Positions 36,402 through 55,432 of a stretch of 64,000 nucleotides of DNA are shown here, piece by piece. The stretch lies in the NCBI RefSeq assembly GCF_009914755.1, contig NC_060938.1; one strand, written 5' to 3'. How positions within the stretch are numbered: the stretch's first letter is position 1; the number at the start of each line of letters is the position of its first letter. A program made the translations under genes and the position numbers. This stretch comes from the human T2T-CHM13v2.0 reference genome, Homo sapiens. The notes beneath the pieces were generated by a model. That model saw nothing but the letters and a program-made list of their open reading frames with translations. It was not told the origin of the DNA and ran no database searches.

Positions 36402-37900
36402 AGTCCCTGTTCCCGTATCTCCTCACTGGGCAGGTTCTCCCAGCCTGGGTCTCCAGCCTTTCCCCACTGGAGCTATTGAGCCAGTAGCAGTTCTTCAGCT
36501 CTCTGGGACAGAGCTCCCAGTGGGAGGGGTGGGTTGCCATCTTTGCTGTCTCACAGCCCTCACCCTTCTTGTCTCCAGGCTCTAGAGAGTCCATGGGGAC
36601 CCGGCACTGGTCTGAACCCCCAGCACAGAGCATCCACCTAATGGAAAAGTGTCCATACAGTTCTCCACGCAGGTCCTGGTCCTCACTTCTCTTCACTGGG
36701 CAGAGTTACCAGGCCCAGGACTCCAGTGCAACCACTCTGCCCCTGCCTGACCGCTTCAATCAGAGGCAGCCCAGCAGTTAAGAGAACATCTAAATGCAGA
36801 GATGAGAAAGAACCAACACAAGAACTCTGACAAGTCAGATGACCAGAGTGTCTTATATCCTCCAAATGACTACACTAGTTCTTCAACAAGGATTCTTAAC
36901 CAGGGTTGGCTGGAATAACAGAAAGAAAATTCAGAATACTGATAGGAACAAAGATCATTGAGGTTCCAGAGAATGGCAAAATCCAATCCGAGAAAACTAA
37001 CAATCAAAATAAAATGATACCGAAGCTGACAGATAAAATAGCCAGTATAAAAGAACTCATCTGATAGAGCTGAAAAACAAACTGCAAGATTTTCACAATG
37101 CAGTCACAAGAATTAACAGCAAAATAGACCAAACTGAGGAAGAAATCTCAGAACTTGGAAGACTGGCTCTTTTAAACACGACAGTCATATACAGATAAAG
37201 AAAAAATAATGAAAAGGAACAAATAAAACCTCTGAGAAATATGGGATTATATAAAGAGGCCCAAACTATAAATCACTGGCATCCCTGAAAGGGATTGGGG
37301 GAAAGCAAACAACTTGGAAAACATATTTCAGGATATCTTCTGTGAAAACTTTCCCAACCTCACTACAGAGGCCAACAGTCAAATTCAGGAAATACAGAGA
37401 ACCTCTGCAAGATTCTCCATAAGAATATCATCACCAAGATACACAATCAGACTTTCCAGGGTCAAAATGAAAGAAGGAATGTTAAAAGCAGCTAGAGAGA
37501 AAGGGAACCCCATCAGGCTAGCAGCAGACCTCTCAGCAGAAACCCTACAAGCCTGAAGAGATTGGGGGCCTATATTCAACATTCTCAATGAAGAAAATCT
37601 TCAACCAAGAATTTCATATCCAGCCAAACTAACCTTCCTCAGTGAAGAAGAAATAAGATCCTTTTCAGATAAGCAAATGCTGAGGGAGATCATTACCACC
37701 AGATCTGCTTTACAAGAGATCTTGAACGAAGCACTAAATATGGAAAGACCATTACCAGCCAATTAAAAAAAAACACAAGTACAGAGGCCAGTGACACTAT
37801 AAAGCAACCACACAAACAAGCTGGCATAAAAAACAGATAACAATACAATGACAGAATCAAATCCACACATATCAATAATAATCTTGAAGGGGTCTTGCTT

Positions 37901-37959
37901 CTTTAACCAGCTTGTCACTCTGTGCCCCATTTAAAAAGCATATAGTAACAAGCTGGATA
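37901..37959 (-). ncRNA. MIR5586: microRNA precursor hsa-mir-5586 (5p 37938-37959; 3p 37901-37922)
   Basis: Reverse complements give UAUCCAGCUUGUUACUAUAUGC and CAGAGUGACAAGCUGGUUAAAG, matching my recollection of miR-5586-5p/-3p. They lie in a directly visible inverted repeat with 36-bp arms (37890-37925 / 37938-37973), on the same strand as RTN1. Confidence 0.88.
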
Positions 37960-39911
37960 AAGAAGCAAGGCCCAATGGTATGCTGTCTTCAAGAGACCCA
38001 TCTCACATGCAGTGACATCCATATGCTCAAAATAAAGGGATGGAGGAAAATCTACCAAGCAAATGGAAAACAGAAAAAAGCAGGGGTTGCAATCCCAATC
38101 TCAGACAAACAGACTTTAAACAAACAAAAATCAAAAAAGACAAGAGCGTTACATAATGGTAAAGGGTTCAATTCAACAAGAAAACCTAACTCTCCTAATA
38201 CGTATGCACCCAACACAGGGACACCCAGATTCACAAAGCAAGTTCTCAAGAGACCTGCAAAGAGACTTAGACTCCAACACAATAATAGTGGGAGACTTCA
38301 ACACTTACTGACAGAACTAGACAGATGATCAAGGCAGAAAATTAACAAGGATATTTCAGACCCAAATTCAACACTGGACCAAATGGATCTGATAGATCTC
38401 CACAGAACTCTCCACCCCAAAACAACAGACTATACATTCTTCTCATCACCACATGGCACATATTGTAAAGTCAACCACACAGTTGGTTATATAACAATTT
38501 TCAGCAAATGTAAAAGAACTGAAATCATACCAAATTCACTCTTGGATAGCAGTGAAAATCAAGACTACAAAAAACTCAAAACATGCAGTTACATGGAAAT
38601 TAAACAACCTGCTCCTGAATGGCTTTTGGGTAAATAATGAAATTAAGGAAGAAATCAAGAAATTCTTTGAAACTAATGAGAACAAAGATACAACATACCA
38701 GAATCTCTGGGACACAGCTAAGGCAGTGTTAAGAGGGAAATTTATAGCACTAAATTCCAACTTAATATCAAAAGTTAGAATCATCTCAAATGTATAACCT
38801 AACCCTGCAACTAAAAGAACTAGAGAAGCAAGAGCAAACCAACTCCAGAGCTAGCAGAAGACAAGAAATAACCAAAATCAGGGCTGAATTGAAGGAGATC
38901 AAGACATTAAAAGCCATGAAAAAATAAGCAAATCCAAGAGTTGGTGTTTTGAAAAACATTAATAAGGTAGTCCACTACCTAGACTAATAAAGAAGAAAAG
39001 ATAGATCCAAATAAACACAATCAGAAATGACAAATGGGATGTTACCATTGACCCCACAGAAATACAAATAACTATTACAGACTATTATGAACACCTCTAT
39101 GCACACATGCACACAAATTAGAAAACCTAGAAGAGATAAATAAATTCCTGGACACATATACCTTCTCAAGACTGAACCAGGAAGAAATTGCTTCCCTGAC
39201 CAGACCAATAATGAGCTTTGAAATTGAATCAGTAATAAATAGTCTATCAACCAAAAAGTCCAGGACCAGATGGATTCACAGCTGCATTCTGCCATTAAAA
39301 TAAAGAAAGAAGAGCTGGTACCATTCCTACTGAAACTATTCCAACAAAATGAGAAGGGACTCCTCCCCAACTAATTCTGTGAGGCCAGCATCATCCTGAA
39401 ACCAAAACCTGGCAGAGACACAACAAAGAAAACTTCAGCCCCATATCCTTGATGAACACTGAGGCAAAAATCCTCAACAAAATACTTGGAAACTGAATCC
39501 AGCAGCACATCAAGAAGTTAATCCACCATGATCAAGAAGGCTTTATCCCTGGGATGCAAGGTTGGTTCAATATATGCAAATCAACAAATGTGATTCATCA
39601 CATAAACAGAACTAAAGACAAAAATCACATTATTAGTTCAATAGATGCAGAAAAACTTTTGATAAAATTCAACATTCATTTATGTTAAAAACTCTCAATA
39701 AACTTTGTATTGAAGGAACATACCTCAAAATAATAAGAGCCATCTATGACTAAACCACAGCCAACATCATACAGAATGGACAAAACCAGGAAGCATTCCC
39801 CCTGAAAACTGGCATAAGACGAGGATGCCCTCTCTCACCACCCCTATTCAACATAGTATTGGATGTCCTGGCCTTAGCACTCAGGCAAGAGAAAGAAATA
39901 AATGGCATTCA

Positions 39912-41372
39912 GGTAGTGTGATGCCACTAGCTTTGTTCTTTTTACTTATGACAAGGCTGCAGTAACCAAAACAGTATGGTACTGGTACCAAAACAGATAT
40001 ATAGACCAACGAAACAGAACAGAGGCCTCAGAAATAATGCCACACATTTACAACCATCTGATCTTTGACAAACCTGACAAAAACAAGCAATGGGGAAAGG
40101 ATGCCCTATTTAATAAATGGTGTTGGGAAAACTGGCTAGCCATAAGCAGAAAACTGAAACTGGACACCTTCCTTACACCTTATACAAAAGTTAACTCAAG
40201 ATGGATTGAAGACTTAAAAGTAAGACCTAAAACCATAAAAACCCTAGAAGAAAACCTAGGCAATATCATTCTGGACACTGGCATGGGCAAAGACTTCATG
40301 ACTGAAACACCAAAAGCAATGGCAACAAAAGCCAAAATTGACAATTGGGATCTAATTAAACTGAAGGGCTTCTTCACAGCAAAATAAACTATCATCAGCA
40401 TGAACAGGCAACCTACAGAATGGGAGAACATTTTTGCAATGTATCCATCTAACAAAGGTCTAATATCCAGAAGCTACAAGGAACTTAAAACAAATTTATA
40501 AAAAAAAACCATCAAAAAGTGGGCAAAGGATATGAACAGACACTTCTCAAAAGAAGACATTTATGTGGCTAACAAACATTTGAAAAAAAGCTCATCATCA
40601 CTGGTCATTATAGAAATGCAAATCAAAACCACAGTGAGATACCATCTCATGCCAGTGAGAATGGTGAGTATTAAAAAGTCTGGAAACAACAGATGCTGGT
40701 GAGGATGTGGAGAAATAGGAATGCTTTTACACTGTTGGTGGGAGTGTAAATTAGTTCAACCATTGTGGAACACAGTGTGGCAATTCCTCAAGGATTTAGA
40801 ACCAGAAATACCATTAGATCCAGCAATCCCATTACTGGGTATATACCCAAAGGATTATAAATCATTCTACCATAAAGACACATGCACATGTATGTTTATT
40901 GCAGCATTATTTATAATAGCAAAGACTTGGAACCAACCCAAATGCCTGGCAATGATAGGCTGGATAAAGAAAATATGGCACATATACACCATGGAATACT
41001 ATGCAGCCATAAAAAAGAATGAGGTCATGCCCTTTGCAGGGACTTGGATGAAGCTGGAAACCATCATCTGCAGCAAACTAACACAGAAACAGAAAACCAA
41101 ACACTGCATGTTCTCACTCATAAGTAGGAGTTGAACAATGAGAACACATGGACACAGGGAGGGGAATATCACACACCAGGGCCTGTCAGATGTGCAGGGA
41201 AAGAGGAGGAAGAGCATTAGGACAAATATCTAATACATGCAGGGCTTAAAACCTAGATGATGGGTTGATAGGTGGAGCAAACCACCATGGCACATGTATA
41301 CCTATGTAACAAACCTGCACATTCAGCACATGTATCCCAGAACTTAAAGTAAAACTAAAAAATAAAATAAAA
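39912..41372 (+). mobile_element. 5'-truncated, 5'-inverted L1PA8-like element nested in the older L1
   Basis: ORF2 3' part plus L1PA8-type 3' UTR (GGGCTTAAAACCTAGATG); host L1 resumes at about 41373. Confidence 0.82.
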
Positions 41373-42418
41373 TGCATTGAAATAGGAAGACAGGAAGTCA
41401 AACTATTTTTTGTTTGCAAATGACATGATTCTTTATCTAGAAAATCCCATCATCTCAGCCCAAAAGCTCTTTAAGCTGATAAACAACTTCAGCAAAATCT
41501 CAGGATACAAAATCAATGTATAAAAATCACTAGAATTCCTGTACACCAATAACAGCCAAGCTGAGAGCCAAATCAGGAAAGCAATCCCATTCACAGTTGC
41601 CACAAAAAGAATAAAACACCCAGGAATACAGCTAACCAGGGATTGTAAGATCTCTACAATGAAAATTACAAAACACTGCTCAAAGAAGTCAGAGATAACA
41701 CAAACAAATGGAAAAACATTCCATGCTCATGAATAGGAAGACTCAATATCATTAAAATGGCCATACTGGCCAAAGAAATTTATAGGTTCAAACCTATCTA
41801 CCAATGACATTTTTCACCTAGGCAATACCACTCAAGACATAGGCATGGGGTCTGTAATCCCAGTACTTTGGGACTGAGTTGGATGGATCACCCGAGGTCA
41901 TGAGTTTGAGACCAGCCTGGCTAACATGGCGAAACCCTGTCTCTACTAAAAAACTAGAAAAAAACTATTTTACATTAATAATTCATATGGAACCAAAAAA
42001 GAACCTGAAAAGCTAAGGCAATCACAAGCAAAAAGGACAAAGCTGGAGGTGTCACGTTACTCAACTTCAAACTATACTATGGGGCTATAATAATGAAAAA
42101 AGCATGGTCCTGGTACAAAAACAGACACATAGAGCCAATGGAACAGAACAGAGAGCTCAGAAATAAGGCCACACACCTACAACCATCTGATCTCTGACAA
42201 ACTTGACAAAAACAAGCAATGGGGAAAGGATGCCCTATTCAATAAATAGTGCTGGAATAACTGGCTAGCCATATGCAGAAAACTGAAACTGGACCCCTTG
42301 CTTACACCATATACAAAAATCAACTCAAGGTGGATTAAAGACTTAAATGTAAAACCCAAAACTATAAAAACCCTGGAAGACAACCTAGGCAATACCACTC
42401 AAGACATAGGCATGGGGT

Positions 42419-42713
42419 CTGTAATTGCAGCACTTTGGGACCGAGTTGGATGGATCACCTGAGGTCAGGAGTTCAAGATCAGCCTGGCTAACATGGCAAA
42501 ACCCTGTCTCTACTAAAAATACAAAAATTAGCTGAGCATGGTAGCAGGCACCTGTAATCCCAGCTGCTTGGGAGGTCGAGGCAGGAGAATTGCTTGAACC
42601 TGGGAGGTGGGCATTTCAGTGAGCCGAGATTGCACCACTGTACTCCAGCCTGGGTGACAGAGACTCCATCTCAAAACAAACAAACAAACAAACAACCCCC
42701 CCAAAAAAACCCA
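42419..42713 (+). mobile_element. AluS, slightly 5'-truncated, in L1 ORF2
   Basis: TSD ACATAGG(C/T)ATGGG. Confidence 0.88.
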
Positions 42714-44834
42714 ACATAGGTATGGGCAAAGATTTCATGATGAAATCACCAAAAGCAACCACGATAAATTGACAAATGGGATCTAATTTAATTTAAATTA
42801 AATTTGTTTCTGCACAGCAAAACAAACTATCAATAAACAGACAACCTACAGAATTGGAGAAAAATTTTGCAAACTATGCATCAAAGGTCTCATATCCACC
42901 ATTTATAAGGAACTTAAACAAATTTACAAAACAACCCCATTGAAAAGTGGGCAAAGGACATGAACAGATACTTCTCAAAAGAAGACATAGATACAGTCAA
43001 CAAGCATATGAAAAAAAACCTCAACATCACTGATCACTAGAGAAATACAAATCAAAACCACAGGGAGATACCATCCCACACCAGTCAGAATGACTATTAT
43101 TAAAAAGTTCAAAAAAATAGCAGATGCTGGTGAGGTTGCAGAGAAAAGGGAACATTTATACACTGTTGGTGGAAGTGTAAATTAGTTCAACCATTGTGGA
43201 AGGCAGTGTAGTTATTCCTCAAAGAGCTAAAAACAACTACCACTTGACCCAGCAATCTCATTACTAGGTATATACCCAAAGGAATATAAATCATTCTACC
43301 ATAATGAGACATGCACACTGTGTTCACGGCAGCACTATTCACAATTACAAAGACATGGAACCAACCTAAATGCCCATTAATGGCAGATTGGATAAAGAAA
43401 ATATGGTACATATACATCATCAAATACTATGTAGCCATAAAAATGAACAAGCTCATGTCTTTTGCAGGATCACGAATGGAGCTGGAGGCCATTATTCTTA
43501 GCAAACTGATGCAGGAACAGAAAACCAAATACCATATGTTCTTACTTTTAAATTGGAGCTAAATGATGAGAACACATGGACACAAAGAGGGCAAAAAAGA
43601 CACTGGGGCCTACTTGAGGGTGGGAGGAGGGAGAGGATCAGAAAAAATAACTATTGGGTACTAGGCTTAGTACCTGGCTCATGAAATAATCTGTAAGATA
43701 AGCTTAGCTATATAGCAAACCTGCACATGTACCCCCTGAATCTAAAATAAAAGTTAAAAAAACACAGAATTATTAAACAAAGATAGATAAATAAAAACAA
43801 TCTAATCTGAAGAACTGAAAGAGAAAAAAGCCTAAAGAAAAACGAAAAAAGTACAGAGACTTGTGGTACAATATCAAGGGTATTAATGTAGGTATAATAG
43901 GAGTTCCAGAAAGAGAGAGGAGAAAGAAAGAAACAGAAAAAAAATTTAAGACATAATCCTGGAAAATGTCCCAAATTCTATTTAAAAATGGATTAGTCAA
44001 CAGATATAAGAACACAACAAACCTCACGTAGTTTAAAGAGAGCCTCACCTAGACACACCTTTATCGAACACTTGAAATAAAAGACAGAAATTTGGAAAGG
44101 AGGAAGTAAAAATGACTCATTGCATGCAGGAGATTATTAATACTAATACCGACTGATTTCTCATTAGAAACAATGGAGACCAGAAAGAAGTTCCATGACA
44201 TTCTGCATGCTGAGACAAATGCTGTCAACCAAGAATTTTATATCCAGAAAATTATCTAAAACTGAAGGTGAAATAAAGACATCCCCAGATAAACAAAGAT
44301 AATTCATTGCTAGCAGACTCACTTTCGAAAAAATTCTAAAGAAAATCTTTCAAGTAGAAAGGAAATTTCCCCCAGATAGCTGCTAAAATTCATAGAAACA
44401 AAGAATTCCAGAAATAGTAAATATTTTGGTGTATGTAATAGACTGCATAATATGTAGTTTCTGTTTTTTATTTATTTAAGAATGAGACTATTCTATATGT
44501 AAAAATATATATAAAGCAATAAATATAAGCAATAAAAATATAAGCAATAAAATAAAACTATATATATAAAGCAATAGTCATATGACTATATTATTGAATT
44601 TATAACATATATAGATAGCAATCTATTAAGAAAACAAAAATTATATATATACTCCCCTAATATACATACTCCCAGAATAATAGGTTCCCAAAATAAAAAC
44701 AAAAATGGACAGAATTAAAGGGAGAAATAGATAATTCAACAATAATAGTTGAAAACTTCAATATCCCTCATTCAACAATGGATAGAACTAAACAGAATAT
44801 TGTTATAACAAGGAAAGAGGAATTGAACAACATT

Positions 44835-48379: not shown

Positions 48380-55432
<7,053 letters not shown>

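What the first reader, a model, noticed from the sequence alone, without database searches (positions are those of the whole stretch)
37880..37975. MIR5586 hairpin appears born in one step by an inverted duplication inside L1 ORF2
Seen: arms 37890-37925 and 37938-37973 are reverse complements (5 mismatches in 36) around a 12-nt loop. The other L1s in this window read ...CCTTAAATGTAAATGGGCTAAATGCCCCAATTAAAAGACACAGACTGGCAA... at this position (e.g. about 50853-50905). Here the TGTAAATGGGCTAAA part is replaced by a reverse-complement copy of the sequence just downstream, rejoining at TGCCCC. The inverted copy keeps the more consensus-like CACAGAG while the forward copy has drifted to CATATAG. Inference: a short-range replication template switch created a Drosha-sized stem at once in an L1 antisense to RTN1, so the host pre-mRNA expresses it. 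Consequence: the 5p arm is antisense to L1 endonuclease-coding RNA of related subfamilies and could target L1-containing transcripts.
Basis: partly seen in the sequence, partly recalled or inferred. Interest (0 to 1): 0.8.

Follow-up and report, generated by a model that had tools for sequence, protein, structure and literature searches.

The report
MIR5586 hairpin from L1 inverted duplication
The human microRNA gene MIR5586 is a hairpin that was made in one stroke when a short piece of an old L1 retrotransposon was copied backwards next to itself, a known way for new microRNA genes to arise that had not been listed for this gene.

Summary
Arms 37890-37925 and 37938-37973 are 31/36 complementary around a 12-nt spacer. 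Either strand folds far better than shuffles (-52.9 and -51.3 kcal/mol, z about -7.5).

An alignment with 27 paralogous L1 copies shows the origin. All 27 keep the normal ORF2 5' sequence. The window copy has 15 nt replaced by a 34-nt reverse-complement copy of the sequence 16-50 nt downstream, with TG(CC) microhomology at the rejoining point.

The rearrangement is private to this copy in the T2T genome. The same stretch of the paralogues has no comparable hairpin.

The five arm mismatches are later substitutions, four on the original arm and one on the copy. The event is old, 0.29-1.0 of the L1 copy's age.

One-step template-switch birth of miRNA hairpins is a published class (PMC10710096). 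MIR5586 is not in the three of that paper's four supplementary files I could read, and its L1 origin is already catalogued (PMC10136691). It is therefore a new member of a known kind.

Targeting of active L1 is not supported. The 3p arm, not 5p, has the most near-complementary genomic sites (765 against 83). Primate orthologues could not be examined.

The parts
36423..43630 (+). Host L1 copy. It is old, 11.5% from the plurality of its closest paralogues, and its ORF2 is broken. It carries a nested younger L1 3' fragment at about 39951-41372.
   Evidence: It is colinear with up to 29 paralogue loci from about 36423/36774 to at least 39547. It is colinear at about 76% identity with the two other L1s of the window, resuming after the nested fragment out to about 43611-43631. 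Divergence is 292 of 2549 sites. The ends are approximate.
37848..37888 (+). Start of L1 ORF2 (ATG at 37848) up to the left breakpoint. The normal L1 sequence ends at 37888.
   Evidence: The translation reads MTESNPHISIIILK and then leaves the ORF2 frame, with a stop 14 codons later. The younger L1 at 50819 reads ORF2p residues 1-56 and matches PDB LINE-1 ORF2p 8sxt at E = 2.7e-30. In the left-junction search the paralogue matches mostly stop at query base 35-42, that is window 37884-37891, around the breakpoint.
37889..37922 (+). The 34-nt inserted segment. It is the reverse complement of 37941-37973 and replaces 15 nt of L1 (ORF2 codons about 14-19). Base 37889 (G) has no templated explanation.
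   Evidence: The alignment shows a 19-column insertion in the window copy only, and 27 of 27 paralogues have the normal 15 nt. The same is seen.
37923..37926 (+). Microhomology at the rejoining point. TG is certain. It extends to TGCC if the ancestor carried the paralogue-plurality G at 37937.
   Evidence: These bases are shared by the end of the inverted copy and by the resuming L1 sequence (reading of the alignment).
37890..37925 (+). Upstream arm of the hairpin (the inverted copy). On the minus-strand RNA it gives miR-5586-3p (37901-37922).
   Evidence: with the hub annotation for the mature products.
37926..37937 (+). The 12-nt spacer, which forms the apical loop. It is original L1 sequence between the rejoining point and the template.
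37938..37973 (+). Downstream arm. It is the original L1 ORF2 sequence and served as the template of the copy. On the minus-strand RNA it gives miR-5586-5p (37938-37959).
   Evidence: It is colinear with all 27 paralogues. Mature products are from the hub annotation.
37901..37959 (-). Annotated MIR5586 precursor (RefSeq NR_049851.1), in an intron of RTN1 and on the RTN1 strand.
   Evidence: Hub annotation.

Best explanation
Shown: an old L1 copy lies on the + strand inside an RTN1 intron, and RTN1 is on the minus strand. In this one copy, 15 nt near the start of ORF2 were lost. They were replaced by a 34-nt reverse-complement copy of the sequence lying 16-50 nt downstream.

Inferred mechanism: a 3' DNA end at the site paired through 2-4 nt of microhomology (TG or TGCC) with the nearby complementary stretch, either on the other template or on itself (snap-back). 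It was extended for about 35 nt and then rejoined the original path. That single event created a stem of about 36-38 bp with a loop of about 10-12 nt, in DNA that previously had no such fold. I favour an event in genomic DNA after insertion, during replication or break repair.

Inferred timing: the event is ancient, between about 0.3 and 1.0 of the L1 copy's age. The five mismatches seen now are later substitutions.

Expression and processing: because the locus is transcribed as part of the RTN1 pre-mRNA, the minus-strand hairpin is available to Drosha and Dicer. It yields miR-5586-5p from the original arm (antisense to L1) and miR-5586-3p from the copied arm (L1-sense sequence). Expression comes from the annotation and from published small-RNA data; I did not test it.

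Function: any regulatory role is most likely weak, through seed or extended pairing to old L1 fragments embedded in other transcripts. It is not control of active L1.
For: - Geometry of the repeat and fold strength on both strands.
- 27 of 27 aligned paralogues carry the normal 15 nt and lack the 34-nt segment. The inserted segment matches the reverse complement of the adjacent downstream L1 sequence, and TG is shared at the junction (2 further copies and the window's younger L1).
- The same 121-nt-equivalent stretch of the 27 paralogues folds at a mean of -20.9 kcal/mol (best -29.8), against -52.9 for the window copy.
- Right-junction 22-mer searched in the whole genome with up to 3 mismatches: 227 places. 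Among the 100 listed, which start with all the hits at 0-2 mismatches, the only ones below 3 mismatches are the locus itself (0), a non-L1 chance match (1) and an ordinary antisense L1 (2). 127 places, all at 3 mismatches given the listing order, were not listed, and only a few of the 3-mismatch hits were read.
- DNA queries across the structure: only the own locus spans it, among 40 scored of 1733 candidates and 40 scored of 121. Two partial crossers proved to be ordinary L1.
- Both arms share the minority A/T variant at 37948/37915, which 10 of 27 paralogues also carry. This fits a local template.
- Timing: 5 differences over 72 arm sites (6.9% per lineage) against 292/2549 = 11.5% for the copy as a whole, ratio 0.61 (95% CI 0.20-1.43). 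The joint likelihood support for event age over copy age is 0.42-1.00, or 0.29-0.97 if 37948 is counted as a private earlier change.
- The mechanism class, and the enrichment of such hairpins in sense-strand introns, are published (PMC10710096; abstract and sections 5, 8, 13, 14 read).
- miR-5586-5p is reported from miRNA-seq of lymphoma (PMC4308918, passages). DICER1 RIP of pre-mir-5586 and DICER1-dependent levels are reported in PMC8857805 (passages).
Against: - No orthologue from another primate could be examined, so the pre-event state is inferred from paralogues and not from the orthologous ancestor.
- The published screen of all 1,821 miRBase loci for template-switch origins does not list mir-5586. 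The string is absent from the main text and from 3 of 4 supplementary files; Dataset S2 could not be read. This could be a quality-control drop-out, or it could mean that no species keeps the L1 without the inversion.
- One base at the left junction (37889) is not explained by the template.
- Only 40 candidates per DNA search were scored, so the uniqueness claim rests mainly on the junction pattern search.
- In the predicted fold, the annotated 5p/3p pair has 3-nt rather than 2-nt 3' overhangs (my reading against the annotation).
- The arm divergence gives no evidence of selection to keep pairing. None of the five changes is compensated, and only 1 of 5 is a G:U wobble on the minus strand.
Confidence: 0.8

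Rival explanations
1. The inverted duplication arose during the retrotransposition that placed this L1 copy, not later in the genome. The cause would be a template jump or snap-back by the L1 reverse transcriptase, or by the polymerase making the second strand.
For: - If no private earlier change is counted, the likelihood peaks at event age equal to copy age (MLE r = 1.00, support 0.42-1.00).
- No unambiguous copy-private substitution is shared by both arms.
- It would explain why an orthologue-based parent/child screen of all miRBase loci did not report this locus.
Against: - The point estimate of arm divergence is lower than that of the copy: 6.9% against 11.5%, ratio 0.61.
- If 37948/37915 is a private earlier change, the MLE is 0.69 and the support interval (0.29-0.97) stops just short of 1.
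- Known L1 insertion-time rearrangements, twin-priming inversions (recalled, not tested), invert the whole 5' part. Here both flanks stay colinear and in one orientation.
Confidence: 0.15
2. The hairpin is real, but MIR5586 is not a functional canonical miRNA gene. It would be a neutrally decaying accidental stem whose small RNAs are low-level by-products without selected targets.
For: - The arms have diverged at a rate not distinguishable from the surrounding dead L1 (ratio 0.61, CI 0.20-1.43), with no compensatory change.
- Rfam has no family that reaches its gathering score here. Only generic hairpin hits appear, and they appear on both strands.
- The annotated duplex shows 3-nt overhangs in the predicted fold (with the annotation).
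- No primate mir-5586 names occur in the searched library (0 papers).
- The published class paper states that only 18 of its 111 template-switch loci pass the stricter MirGeneDB annotation.
Against: - miR-5586-5p was measured by miRNA-seq in two lymphoma cohorts (PMC4308918, passages).
- DICER1 RIP and DICER1-dependent levels are reported, with reporter-type target claims (PMC8857805, passages).
- Stem length (36 bp) and loop length (12 nt) fit the Microprocessor preference quoted in PMC10710096 (35-bp stem, loop of 10 nt or more).
Confidence: 0.4
3. The upstream arm is an unrelated antisense L1 fragment from another copy, captured at a break as filler DNA. It would not be a copy of the adjacent sequence.
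For: The inverted arm is closer to the family plurality than the adjacent forward arm is: 1 change against 4.
Against: - The fragment corresponds exactly to the segment starting 12 nt downstream of the junction, out of an L1 several kb long.
- It ends in microhomology with the rejoining point.
- It shares the minority variant at 37948/37915 with the adjacent arm.
- The 4:1 asymmetry is compatible with chance (p = 0.375).
Confidence: 0.03
4. The inverted segment is a feature of an L1 subfamily, or the pairing built up gradually by point mutation.
For: None found.
Against: - 27 of 27 aligned paralogues, and 2 further checked copies, lack the segment.
- No other genomic place carries the right junction at 2 or fewer mismatches in an L1 rearranged this way.
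- The paralogues fold no better than -29.8 kcal/mol.
- The event removes ORF2 codons about 14-19 and shifts the frame, so a source element carrying it should not have propagated. That last step rests on what is known of the L1 endonuclease.
Confidence: 0.01

Closest known systems
Template-switch-mutation (TSM) generated miRNA hairpins (Monttinen, Frilander and Loytynoja, PNAS 2023, PMC10710096)
   Same: - A single event writes a reverse-complement copy of nearby sequence, creating a near-perfect stem of miRNA size in previously unstructured DNA.
[quoted passage not shown]
- Mismatches accumulate afterwards.
- Several listed loci also have LINE/L1 within 1 kb, for example hsa-mir-552, -5583-2, -5588 and -5682 in Dataset S1.
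   Different: - hsa-mir-5586 is not in that paper's main text, nor in the 3 of 4 supplementary files that could be read.
- Here the pre-event state is inferred from L1 paralogues within one genome, not from orthologous ancestors.
- The event may be as old as the L1 insertion itself. In that case an orthologue-based parent/child test cannot see it.
Transposon-derived miRNAs (catalogued in MDTE DB-type lists; review table in PMC10136691)
   Same: miR-5586 is already listed there as LINE/L1-derived. As with other TE-derived miRNAs, its arms are near-complementary to many dispersed copies of the parent element.
   Different: In the usual accounts (recalled, not checked here), TE-derived hairpins come from terminal inverted repeats (MITE-like elements), or from two neighbouring TE copies in opposite orientation. 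Here one L1 copy supplied both arms through an internal inverted duplication. The list gives no mechanism.
Templated insertions from snap-back synthesis in polymerase-theta-mediated end joining, and microhomology-mediated replication template switching (FoSTeS/MMBIR) (recalled literature, not read here)
   Same: A small deletion plus a templated inverted insertion copied from within tens of bases of the break, primed on 2-4 nt of microhomology.
   Different: No enzyme can be assigned from the sequence scar alone. By recollection a 34-nt insert is at the long end for end-joining scars. This was not tested.
L1 twin-priming inversions (recalled literature)
   Same: An inverted L1 segment inside an L1 copy.
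   Different: Twin priming inverts the whole 5' portion of a truncated insertion. Here only 34 nt are inverted, it is a duplication rather than an inversion, and both flanks stay colinear in one orientation.

Membership tests
TSM-generated miRNA hairpin (criteria in PMC10710096, sections 13-14) | Inverted fragment of at least 15 nt with at least 80% identity to its source | tested here: met
   36-nt arms, 31/36 = 86% complementary. The criteria were read.
TSM-generated miRNA hairpin (criteria in PMC10710096, sections 13-14) | The inverted solution explains at least 5 differences from the parent better than a forward alignment does | tested here: met
   With L1 paralogues as stand-in for the parent, a 15-nt replacement plus a 19-nt net insertion is explained by one inverted copy. 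The authors' FPA tool was not run.
TSM-generated miRNA hairpin (criteria in PMC10710096, sections 13-14) | No equally long hairpin at the position in the parent; new stem of 30-55 bases; loop in the central third | tested here: met
   The 27 paralogues fold at a mean of -20.9 kcal/mol (best -29.8) against -52.9. The stem is 36 bp with a central 12-nt spacer.
TSM-generated miRNA hairpin (criteria in PMC10710096, sections 13-14) | The TSM locus covers at least 95% of the annotated miRNA locus | tested here: met
   37889-37973 contains the whole of 37901-37959 (with the hub annotation).
TSM-generated miRNA hairpin (criteria in PMC10710096, sections 13-14) | The event is placed on a branch between reconstructed orthologous parent and child nodes, with source and target sites conserved in sister and grandparent nodes | not testable with these tools
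The locus is absent from the paper's Dataset S1.
Canonical Drosha/Dicer miRNA | Stem of about 35 bp with an unstructured apical loop of 10 nt or more, flanked by single-stranded RNA | tested here: met
   The predicted minus-strand fold has a 36-bp stem with single mismatches and unpaired flanks. The preference is quoted in PMC10710096.
Canonical Drosha/Dicer miRNA | 5p/3p duplex with 2-nt 3' overhangs and homogeneous 5' ends in small-RNA reads | tested here: inconclusive
   The annotated ends placed on the fold give 3-nt overhangs at both ends. No read data are available here.
Canonical Drosha/Dicer miRNA | Dependence on DROSHA/DGCR8 and DICER1; loading into Argonaute | not testable with these tools
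   Only published claims are available: DICER1 RIP and qPCR in PMC8857805 (passages). No DROSHA or AGO data were seen.
Canonical Drosha/Dicer miRNA | Conservation of the hairpin and seed in related species | not testable with these tools
   No orthologues are available. 0 papers in the library name a primate mir-5586.
Any Rfam miRNA family | Score at or above the family's gathering threshold | tested here: not met
   The best hit is mir-3524 at 48.2 bits against a gathering score of 99. It appears on both strands, and the alignments show structure-only matches.
L1 (LINE-1) ORF2, endonuclease-coding 5' end | Colinear homology to other L1 copies, and a reading frame matching ORF2p residues 1 onward | tested here: met
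   Colinear with paralogues over about 2.7 kb or more. The window copy reads MTESNPHISIIILK before the break. The neighbouring L1 copy's first 56 codons match PDB LINE-1 ORF2p at E = 2.7e-30.
   No Dfam or RepeatMasker library is available here. The only measurements are 11.5% divergence from the plurality of the closest paralogues and about 76% identity to the two other L1s in the window.
L1 twin-priming inversion | The whole 5' segment of the insertion is inverted relative to the 3' segment | tested here: not met
   Sequence on both sides of the 34-nt segment is colinear with the paralogues and in the same orientation.

The most novel reading that the evidence does not exclude
The MIR5586 hairpin was written at, or very close to, the moment this L1 copy was inserted, as a by-product of retrotransposition or its repair. 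If so, there never was an orthologous locus with the L1 but without the stem. TE-borne template-switch hairpins of this kind would then be systematically invisible to orthologue-based screens. They could be recovered only by comparing a TE copy with its paralogues, as done here, which would mean the published count of template-switch miRNAs is an underestimate.
Probability: 0.15. Interest if true: 0.5.

Novelty: new member of a known kind. Interest (0 to 1): 0.3.

Why it matters
This is a clean, fully reconstructable example of a gene-sized RNA structure created by one mutation. Donor, target, deletion, microhomology and later decay can all be read from a single genome by using transposon paralogues as the 'before' state.

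It adds one annotated human miRNA to the template-switch class. It also points to a practical gap: events on the same branch as the TE insertion, or in poorly aligned repeats, can be missed by orthologue-based screens.

It does not change how miRNA birth is understood, and nothing here shows that the miRNA has a selected function.

Tried and rejected
- Rfam gave only sub-threshold, structure-driven hits to unrelated miRNA families on both strands. I rejected these as evidence of family membership.
- The 1-mismatch junction hit on contig C10 (L032) is non-L1 sequence, so a chance match. The 2-mismatch hit (L033) is an ordinary antisense L1.
- Two loci whose BLAST matches ran a few bases across a junction (C11, C13) were fetched and aligned. 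Both have the normal L1 arrangement.
I used the intact first 56 codons against PDB sequences instead.
- Searches for an age or quality classification of mir-5586 led nowhere. Fromm 2015 is not held. The supplement of Alles 2019 is unreadable. No paper names primate orthologues.
- 'mir-5586' combined with 'transposable element' gave 2 papers, and only one gives a TE class.
- 'template switch' + 'LINE-1' + 'microRNA' + 'inverted repeat' gave 12 papers (10 listed), judged from titles and abstract openings only; none appeared to concern this locus or this mechanism in L1.
- I did not convert divergence to years by any search. Any figure in millions of years would rest on a recalled substitution rate.
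Full report
**1. The observation**

The window sequence contains an inverted repeat with arms 37890-37925 and 37938-37973. The arms are 36 nt long, 86% complementary (5 mismatches), and 12 nt apart.

As RNA, the minus strand of 37870-37990 folds into one long stem at -52.9 kcal/mol. Dinucleotide shuffles average -24.8 (sd 3.75), giving z = -7.49, and 0 of 200 shuffles fold as well. The plus strand folds almost as well (-51.3, z = -7.73).

**2. What the surrounding sequence is**

The hairpin lies in an L1 copy on the + strand.
- The copy is colinear with up to 29 paralogous loci from about 36423/36774 to at least 39547, which is the limit of the fetched loci.
- It is colinear at about 76% identity with the two other L1s of the window. 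It resumes after a nested, younger L1 3' fragment (about 39951-41372) and runs to about 43.6 kb.
- An ATG at 37848 opens a frame reading MTESNPHISIIILK, which then leaves the ORF2 reading and hits a stop.
- The younger L1 at 50819 reads 56 uninterrupted codons. These match residues 1-56 of solved LINE-1 ORF2p structures (8sxt E = 2.7e-30; endonuclease domain entries such as 1vyb at 8e-30).

The hairpin therefore sits at the very start of the endonuclease-coding part of ORF2.

According to the hub annotation, RTN1 and MIR5586 are on the minus strand. The miRNA is thus read antisense to the L1 and sense to the RTN1 pre-mRNA, inside an intron of the long isoforms.

**3. How the hairpin arose**

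I searched the window's own assembly with 37860-38000. Of 1733 first-look candidates, 40 were scored.
- The own locus matched end to end.
- 38 others matched only from query base 59-67 onward, that is the forward arm and what follows.
- One locus (L007) aligned end to end with a gap.

In many of the same loci, the inverted arm matched the same place on the opposite strand.

I then aligned the window copy with 27 of the 29 paralogues. Two were dropped because their matches did not span the site. All 27 read the normal L1 sequence through the site. The window copy alone has a 19-column insertion: 15 nt of L1 are missing and 34 nt (37889-37922) stand in their place.

Those 34 nt are the reverse complement of the L1 sequence at 37941-37973 in its family-typical form. 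The next bases, TG, belong equally to the end of the inverted copy and to the resuming L1 sequence. If the ancestor had the paralogue-plurality G at 37937, the shared stretch is TGCC.

The geometry is that of a short-range template switch or snap-back. A 3' end at the site pairs by 2-4 nt with the complementary stretch 12 nt away, is extended for about 35 nt, and then rejoins. One base at the left junction (G at 37889) is unexplained. It may be untemplated or a later substitution.

**4. Privacy of the event**

- The 22-nt right junction was searched genome-wide with up to 3 mismatches and occurs at 227 places (control: 2). Of these, 100 were listed, starting with all the hits at 0-2 mismatches.
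- Below 3 mismatches there are only three hits: the locus itself (0), a non-L1 chance match on C10 (1 mismatch) and an ordinary antisense L1 on C4 (2 mismatches).
- The listed 3-mismatch hits look Alu-like or like ordinary antisense L1 from their printed strings. Only a few were inspected, and the 127 unlisted places were not seen.
- A second DNA query across the left junction (37850-37937) scored 40 of 121 candidates. Again only the own locus spans it.
- Two loci whose matches ran a few bases over a junction were fetched and aligned, and both have the normal arrangement.

So the inverted segment is neither a subfamily feature nor shared with any paralogue found.

The event also removes ORF2 codons about 14-19 and shifts the frame. 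This makes propagation from a source element carrying it implausible. That inference rests on what is known of the L1 endonuclease and on recall.

**5. Before and after**

The stretch equivalent to 37870-37990 in the 27 paralogues folds on the minus strand at a mean of -20.9 kcal/mol (range -29.8 to -16.3), against -52.9 for the window copy. There was no proto-hairpin to improve. Gradual build-up of pairing is rejected.

**6. The five mismatches and the date**

Relative to the paralogue plurality, four mismatches are changes on the forward (original) arm, at 37941, 37943, 37947 and 37970. One is a change on the inverted arm, at 37906. The 4:1 split is compatible with chance (p = 0.375).

A fifth forward-arm departure from the plurality, at 37948, is shared by the inverted arm. 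Ten of the 27 paralogues also carry it, so it is probably an inherited variant.

The rate comparison runs as follows.
- Outside the hairpin, the copy differs from the plurality at 32 of 406 sites in the 500-bp alignment.
- In a 2.7-kb alignment with 21 paralogues it differs at 292 of 2549 sites, or 11.5%.
- The arms differ at 5 of 36 positions, which is 6.9% per lineage.
- The rate ratio is 0.61 (95% CI 0.20-1.43).
- Adding the absence, or single presence, of private earlier changes shared by both arms, the likelihood support for event age over copy age is 0.42-1.00, or 0.29-0.97.

The event is therefore old. It could date from the insertion itself or from roughly the first two-thirds of the copy's residence. 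It is not recent. I give no figure in years, because that would rest on a recalled rate.

The same numbers show no sign of selection for pairing. No change is compensated, and only one of the five gives a G:U wobble on the minus strand (my reading of the sequence).

**7. The miRNA**

By the annotation, 5p is 37938-37959 and 3p is 37901-37922, both on the minus strand. 5p comes from the original L1 arm and is antisense to L1 sense RNA. 3p comes from the copied arm and carries L1-sense sequence.

On the predicted fold, the stem is 36 bp and the 5p 5' end lies 14 positions above the base of the stem. The annotated duplex has 3-nt 3' overhangs at both ends rather than the canonical 2. This may only reflect the annotated ends.

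Rfam has no family for it. All hits are well below gathering scores, occur on both strands, and align by structure only.

Published data I saw as passages: miR-5586-5p was quantified by miRNA-seq in two lymphoma cohorts (PMC4308918). DICER1 RIP of pre-mir-5586 and DICER1-dependent levels were reported in pancreatic cancer cells (PMC8857805). I saw no DROSHA or Argonaute evidence.

**8. Possible targets**

Sites in the genome with 3 or fewer mismatches to the full 22-nt complement:
- 83 for 5p (controls 4), including the locus itself.
- 765 for 3p (controls 3), including 16 places at 1 mismatch.

The copied arm stayed closer to the family sequence, so it has about nine times more near-perfect partners. 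These are L1 copies lying antisense in a transcript.

The 5p seed complement is present in the family sequence. It is broken in the younger L1PA-type copy of the window (my reading). Control of young, active L1 by 5p is therefore not supported.

What remains is the usual picture for TE-derived miRNAs: many potential weak sites in old TE fragments, with function unproven.

**9. Comparison with what is known**

Template-switch mutations that create miRNA hairpins in one event are described in PMC10710096.
- The authors screened all 1,821 miRBase loci with an orthologue-based parent/child test. They report 111 loci, enriched in sense-strand introns (abstract and sections 5, 8, 13, 14 read).
- '5586' and 'RTN1' occur neither in the main text nor in the three supplementary files that could be read. 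These include Dataset S1 with its 116 rows. Dataset S2 was too large to read.
- Measured against their stated criteria, the locus qualifies when L1 paralogues stand in for the parent. The criteria are: inverted fragment of at least 15 nt, at least 80% identity, at least 5 differences explained, no equal hairpin in the parent, stem of 30-55 bases, central loop, and at least 95% of the miRNA locus covered.
- The orthologous placement on a branch could not be tested.

That miR-5586 is L1-derived is already tabulated (PMC10136691, table entry), but without a mechanism. Two further searches found nothing on this locus's origin, and none found primate orthologue names.

**10. Verdict**

The mechanism cannot be narrowed to replication rather than repair or retrotransposition. 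The functional consequence is speculative and partly mis-aimed.

This is a new member of a known kind. Its modest added value is methodological: TE paralogues can reveal template-switch births that orthologue-based screens may miss.

Noticed in passing
window 39951-41372: A younger L1 3' fragment is nested in the old host L1. It is 85-90% identical to the 3' parts of the two other L1s in the window, whereas the host is about 76% identical to them. The host L1 resumes after it.
   Followed up: partly
window 37901-37922 versus 37938-37959: The copied arm (3p) has 765 genomic sites with 3 or fewer mismatches to its complement. The original arm (5p) has 83. The original arm took four of the five later substitutions, so the 'copy' is now the better-preserved record of the ancestral L1 sequence.
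   Followed up: yes
window 37889: A single G at the left junction fits neither the L1 sequence nor the template. It may be an untemplated base added at the switch, or a later T-to-G change that shortened the original stem by one pair.
   Followed up: no
window 37884-37979, both strands: Rfam covariance models of unrelated single-hairpin miRNA families give E-values down to 1.6e-10 on this stem, on both strands, while staying far below their gathering scores. Examples are mir-3524, mir-2300, mir-1 and the plant families MIR6288 and MIR837. This is a reminder that E-value hits of such models to any long near-perfect hairpin are not evidence of homology.
   Followed up: yes
window 37926-37937: The 12-nt spacer that became the loop is itself close to self-complementary with the adjoining bases. 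In the minus-strand MFE fold the apical part shifts register (6 extra pairs, 6-nt loop) relative to the simple arm-to-arm pairing.
   Followed up: no
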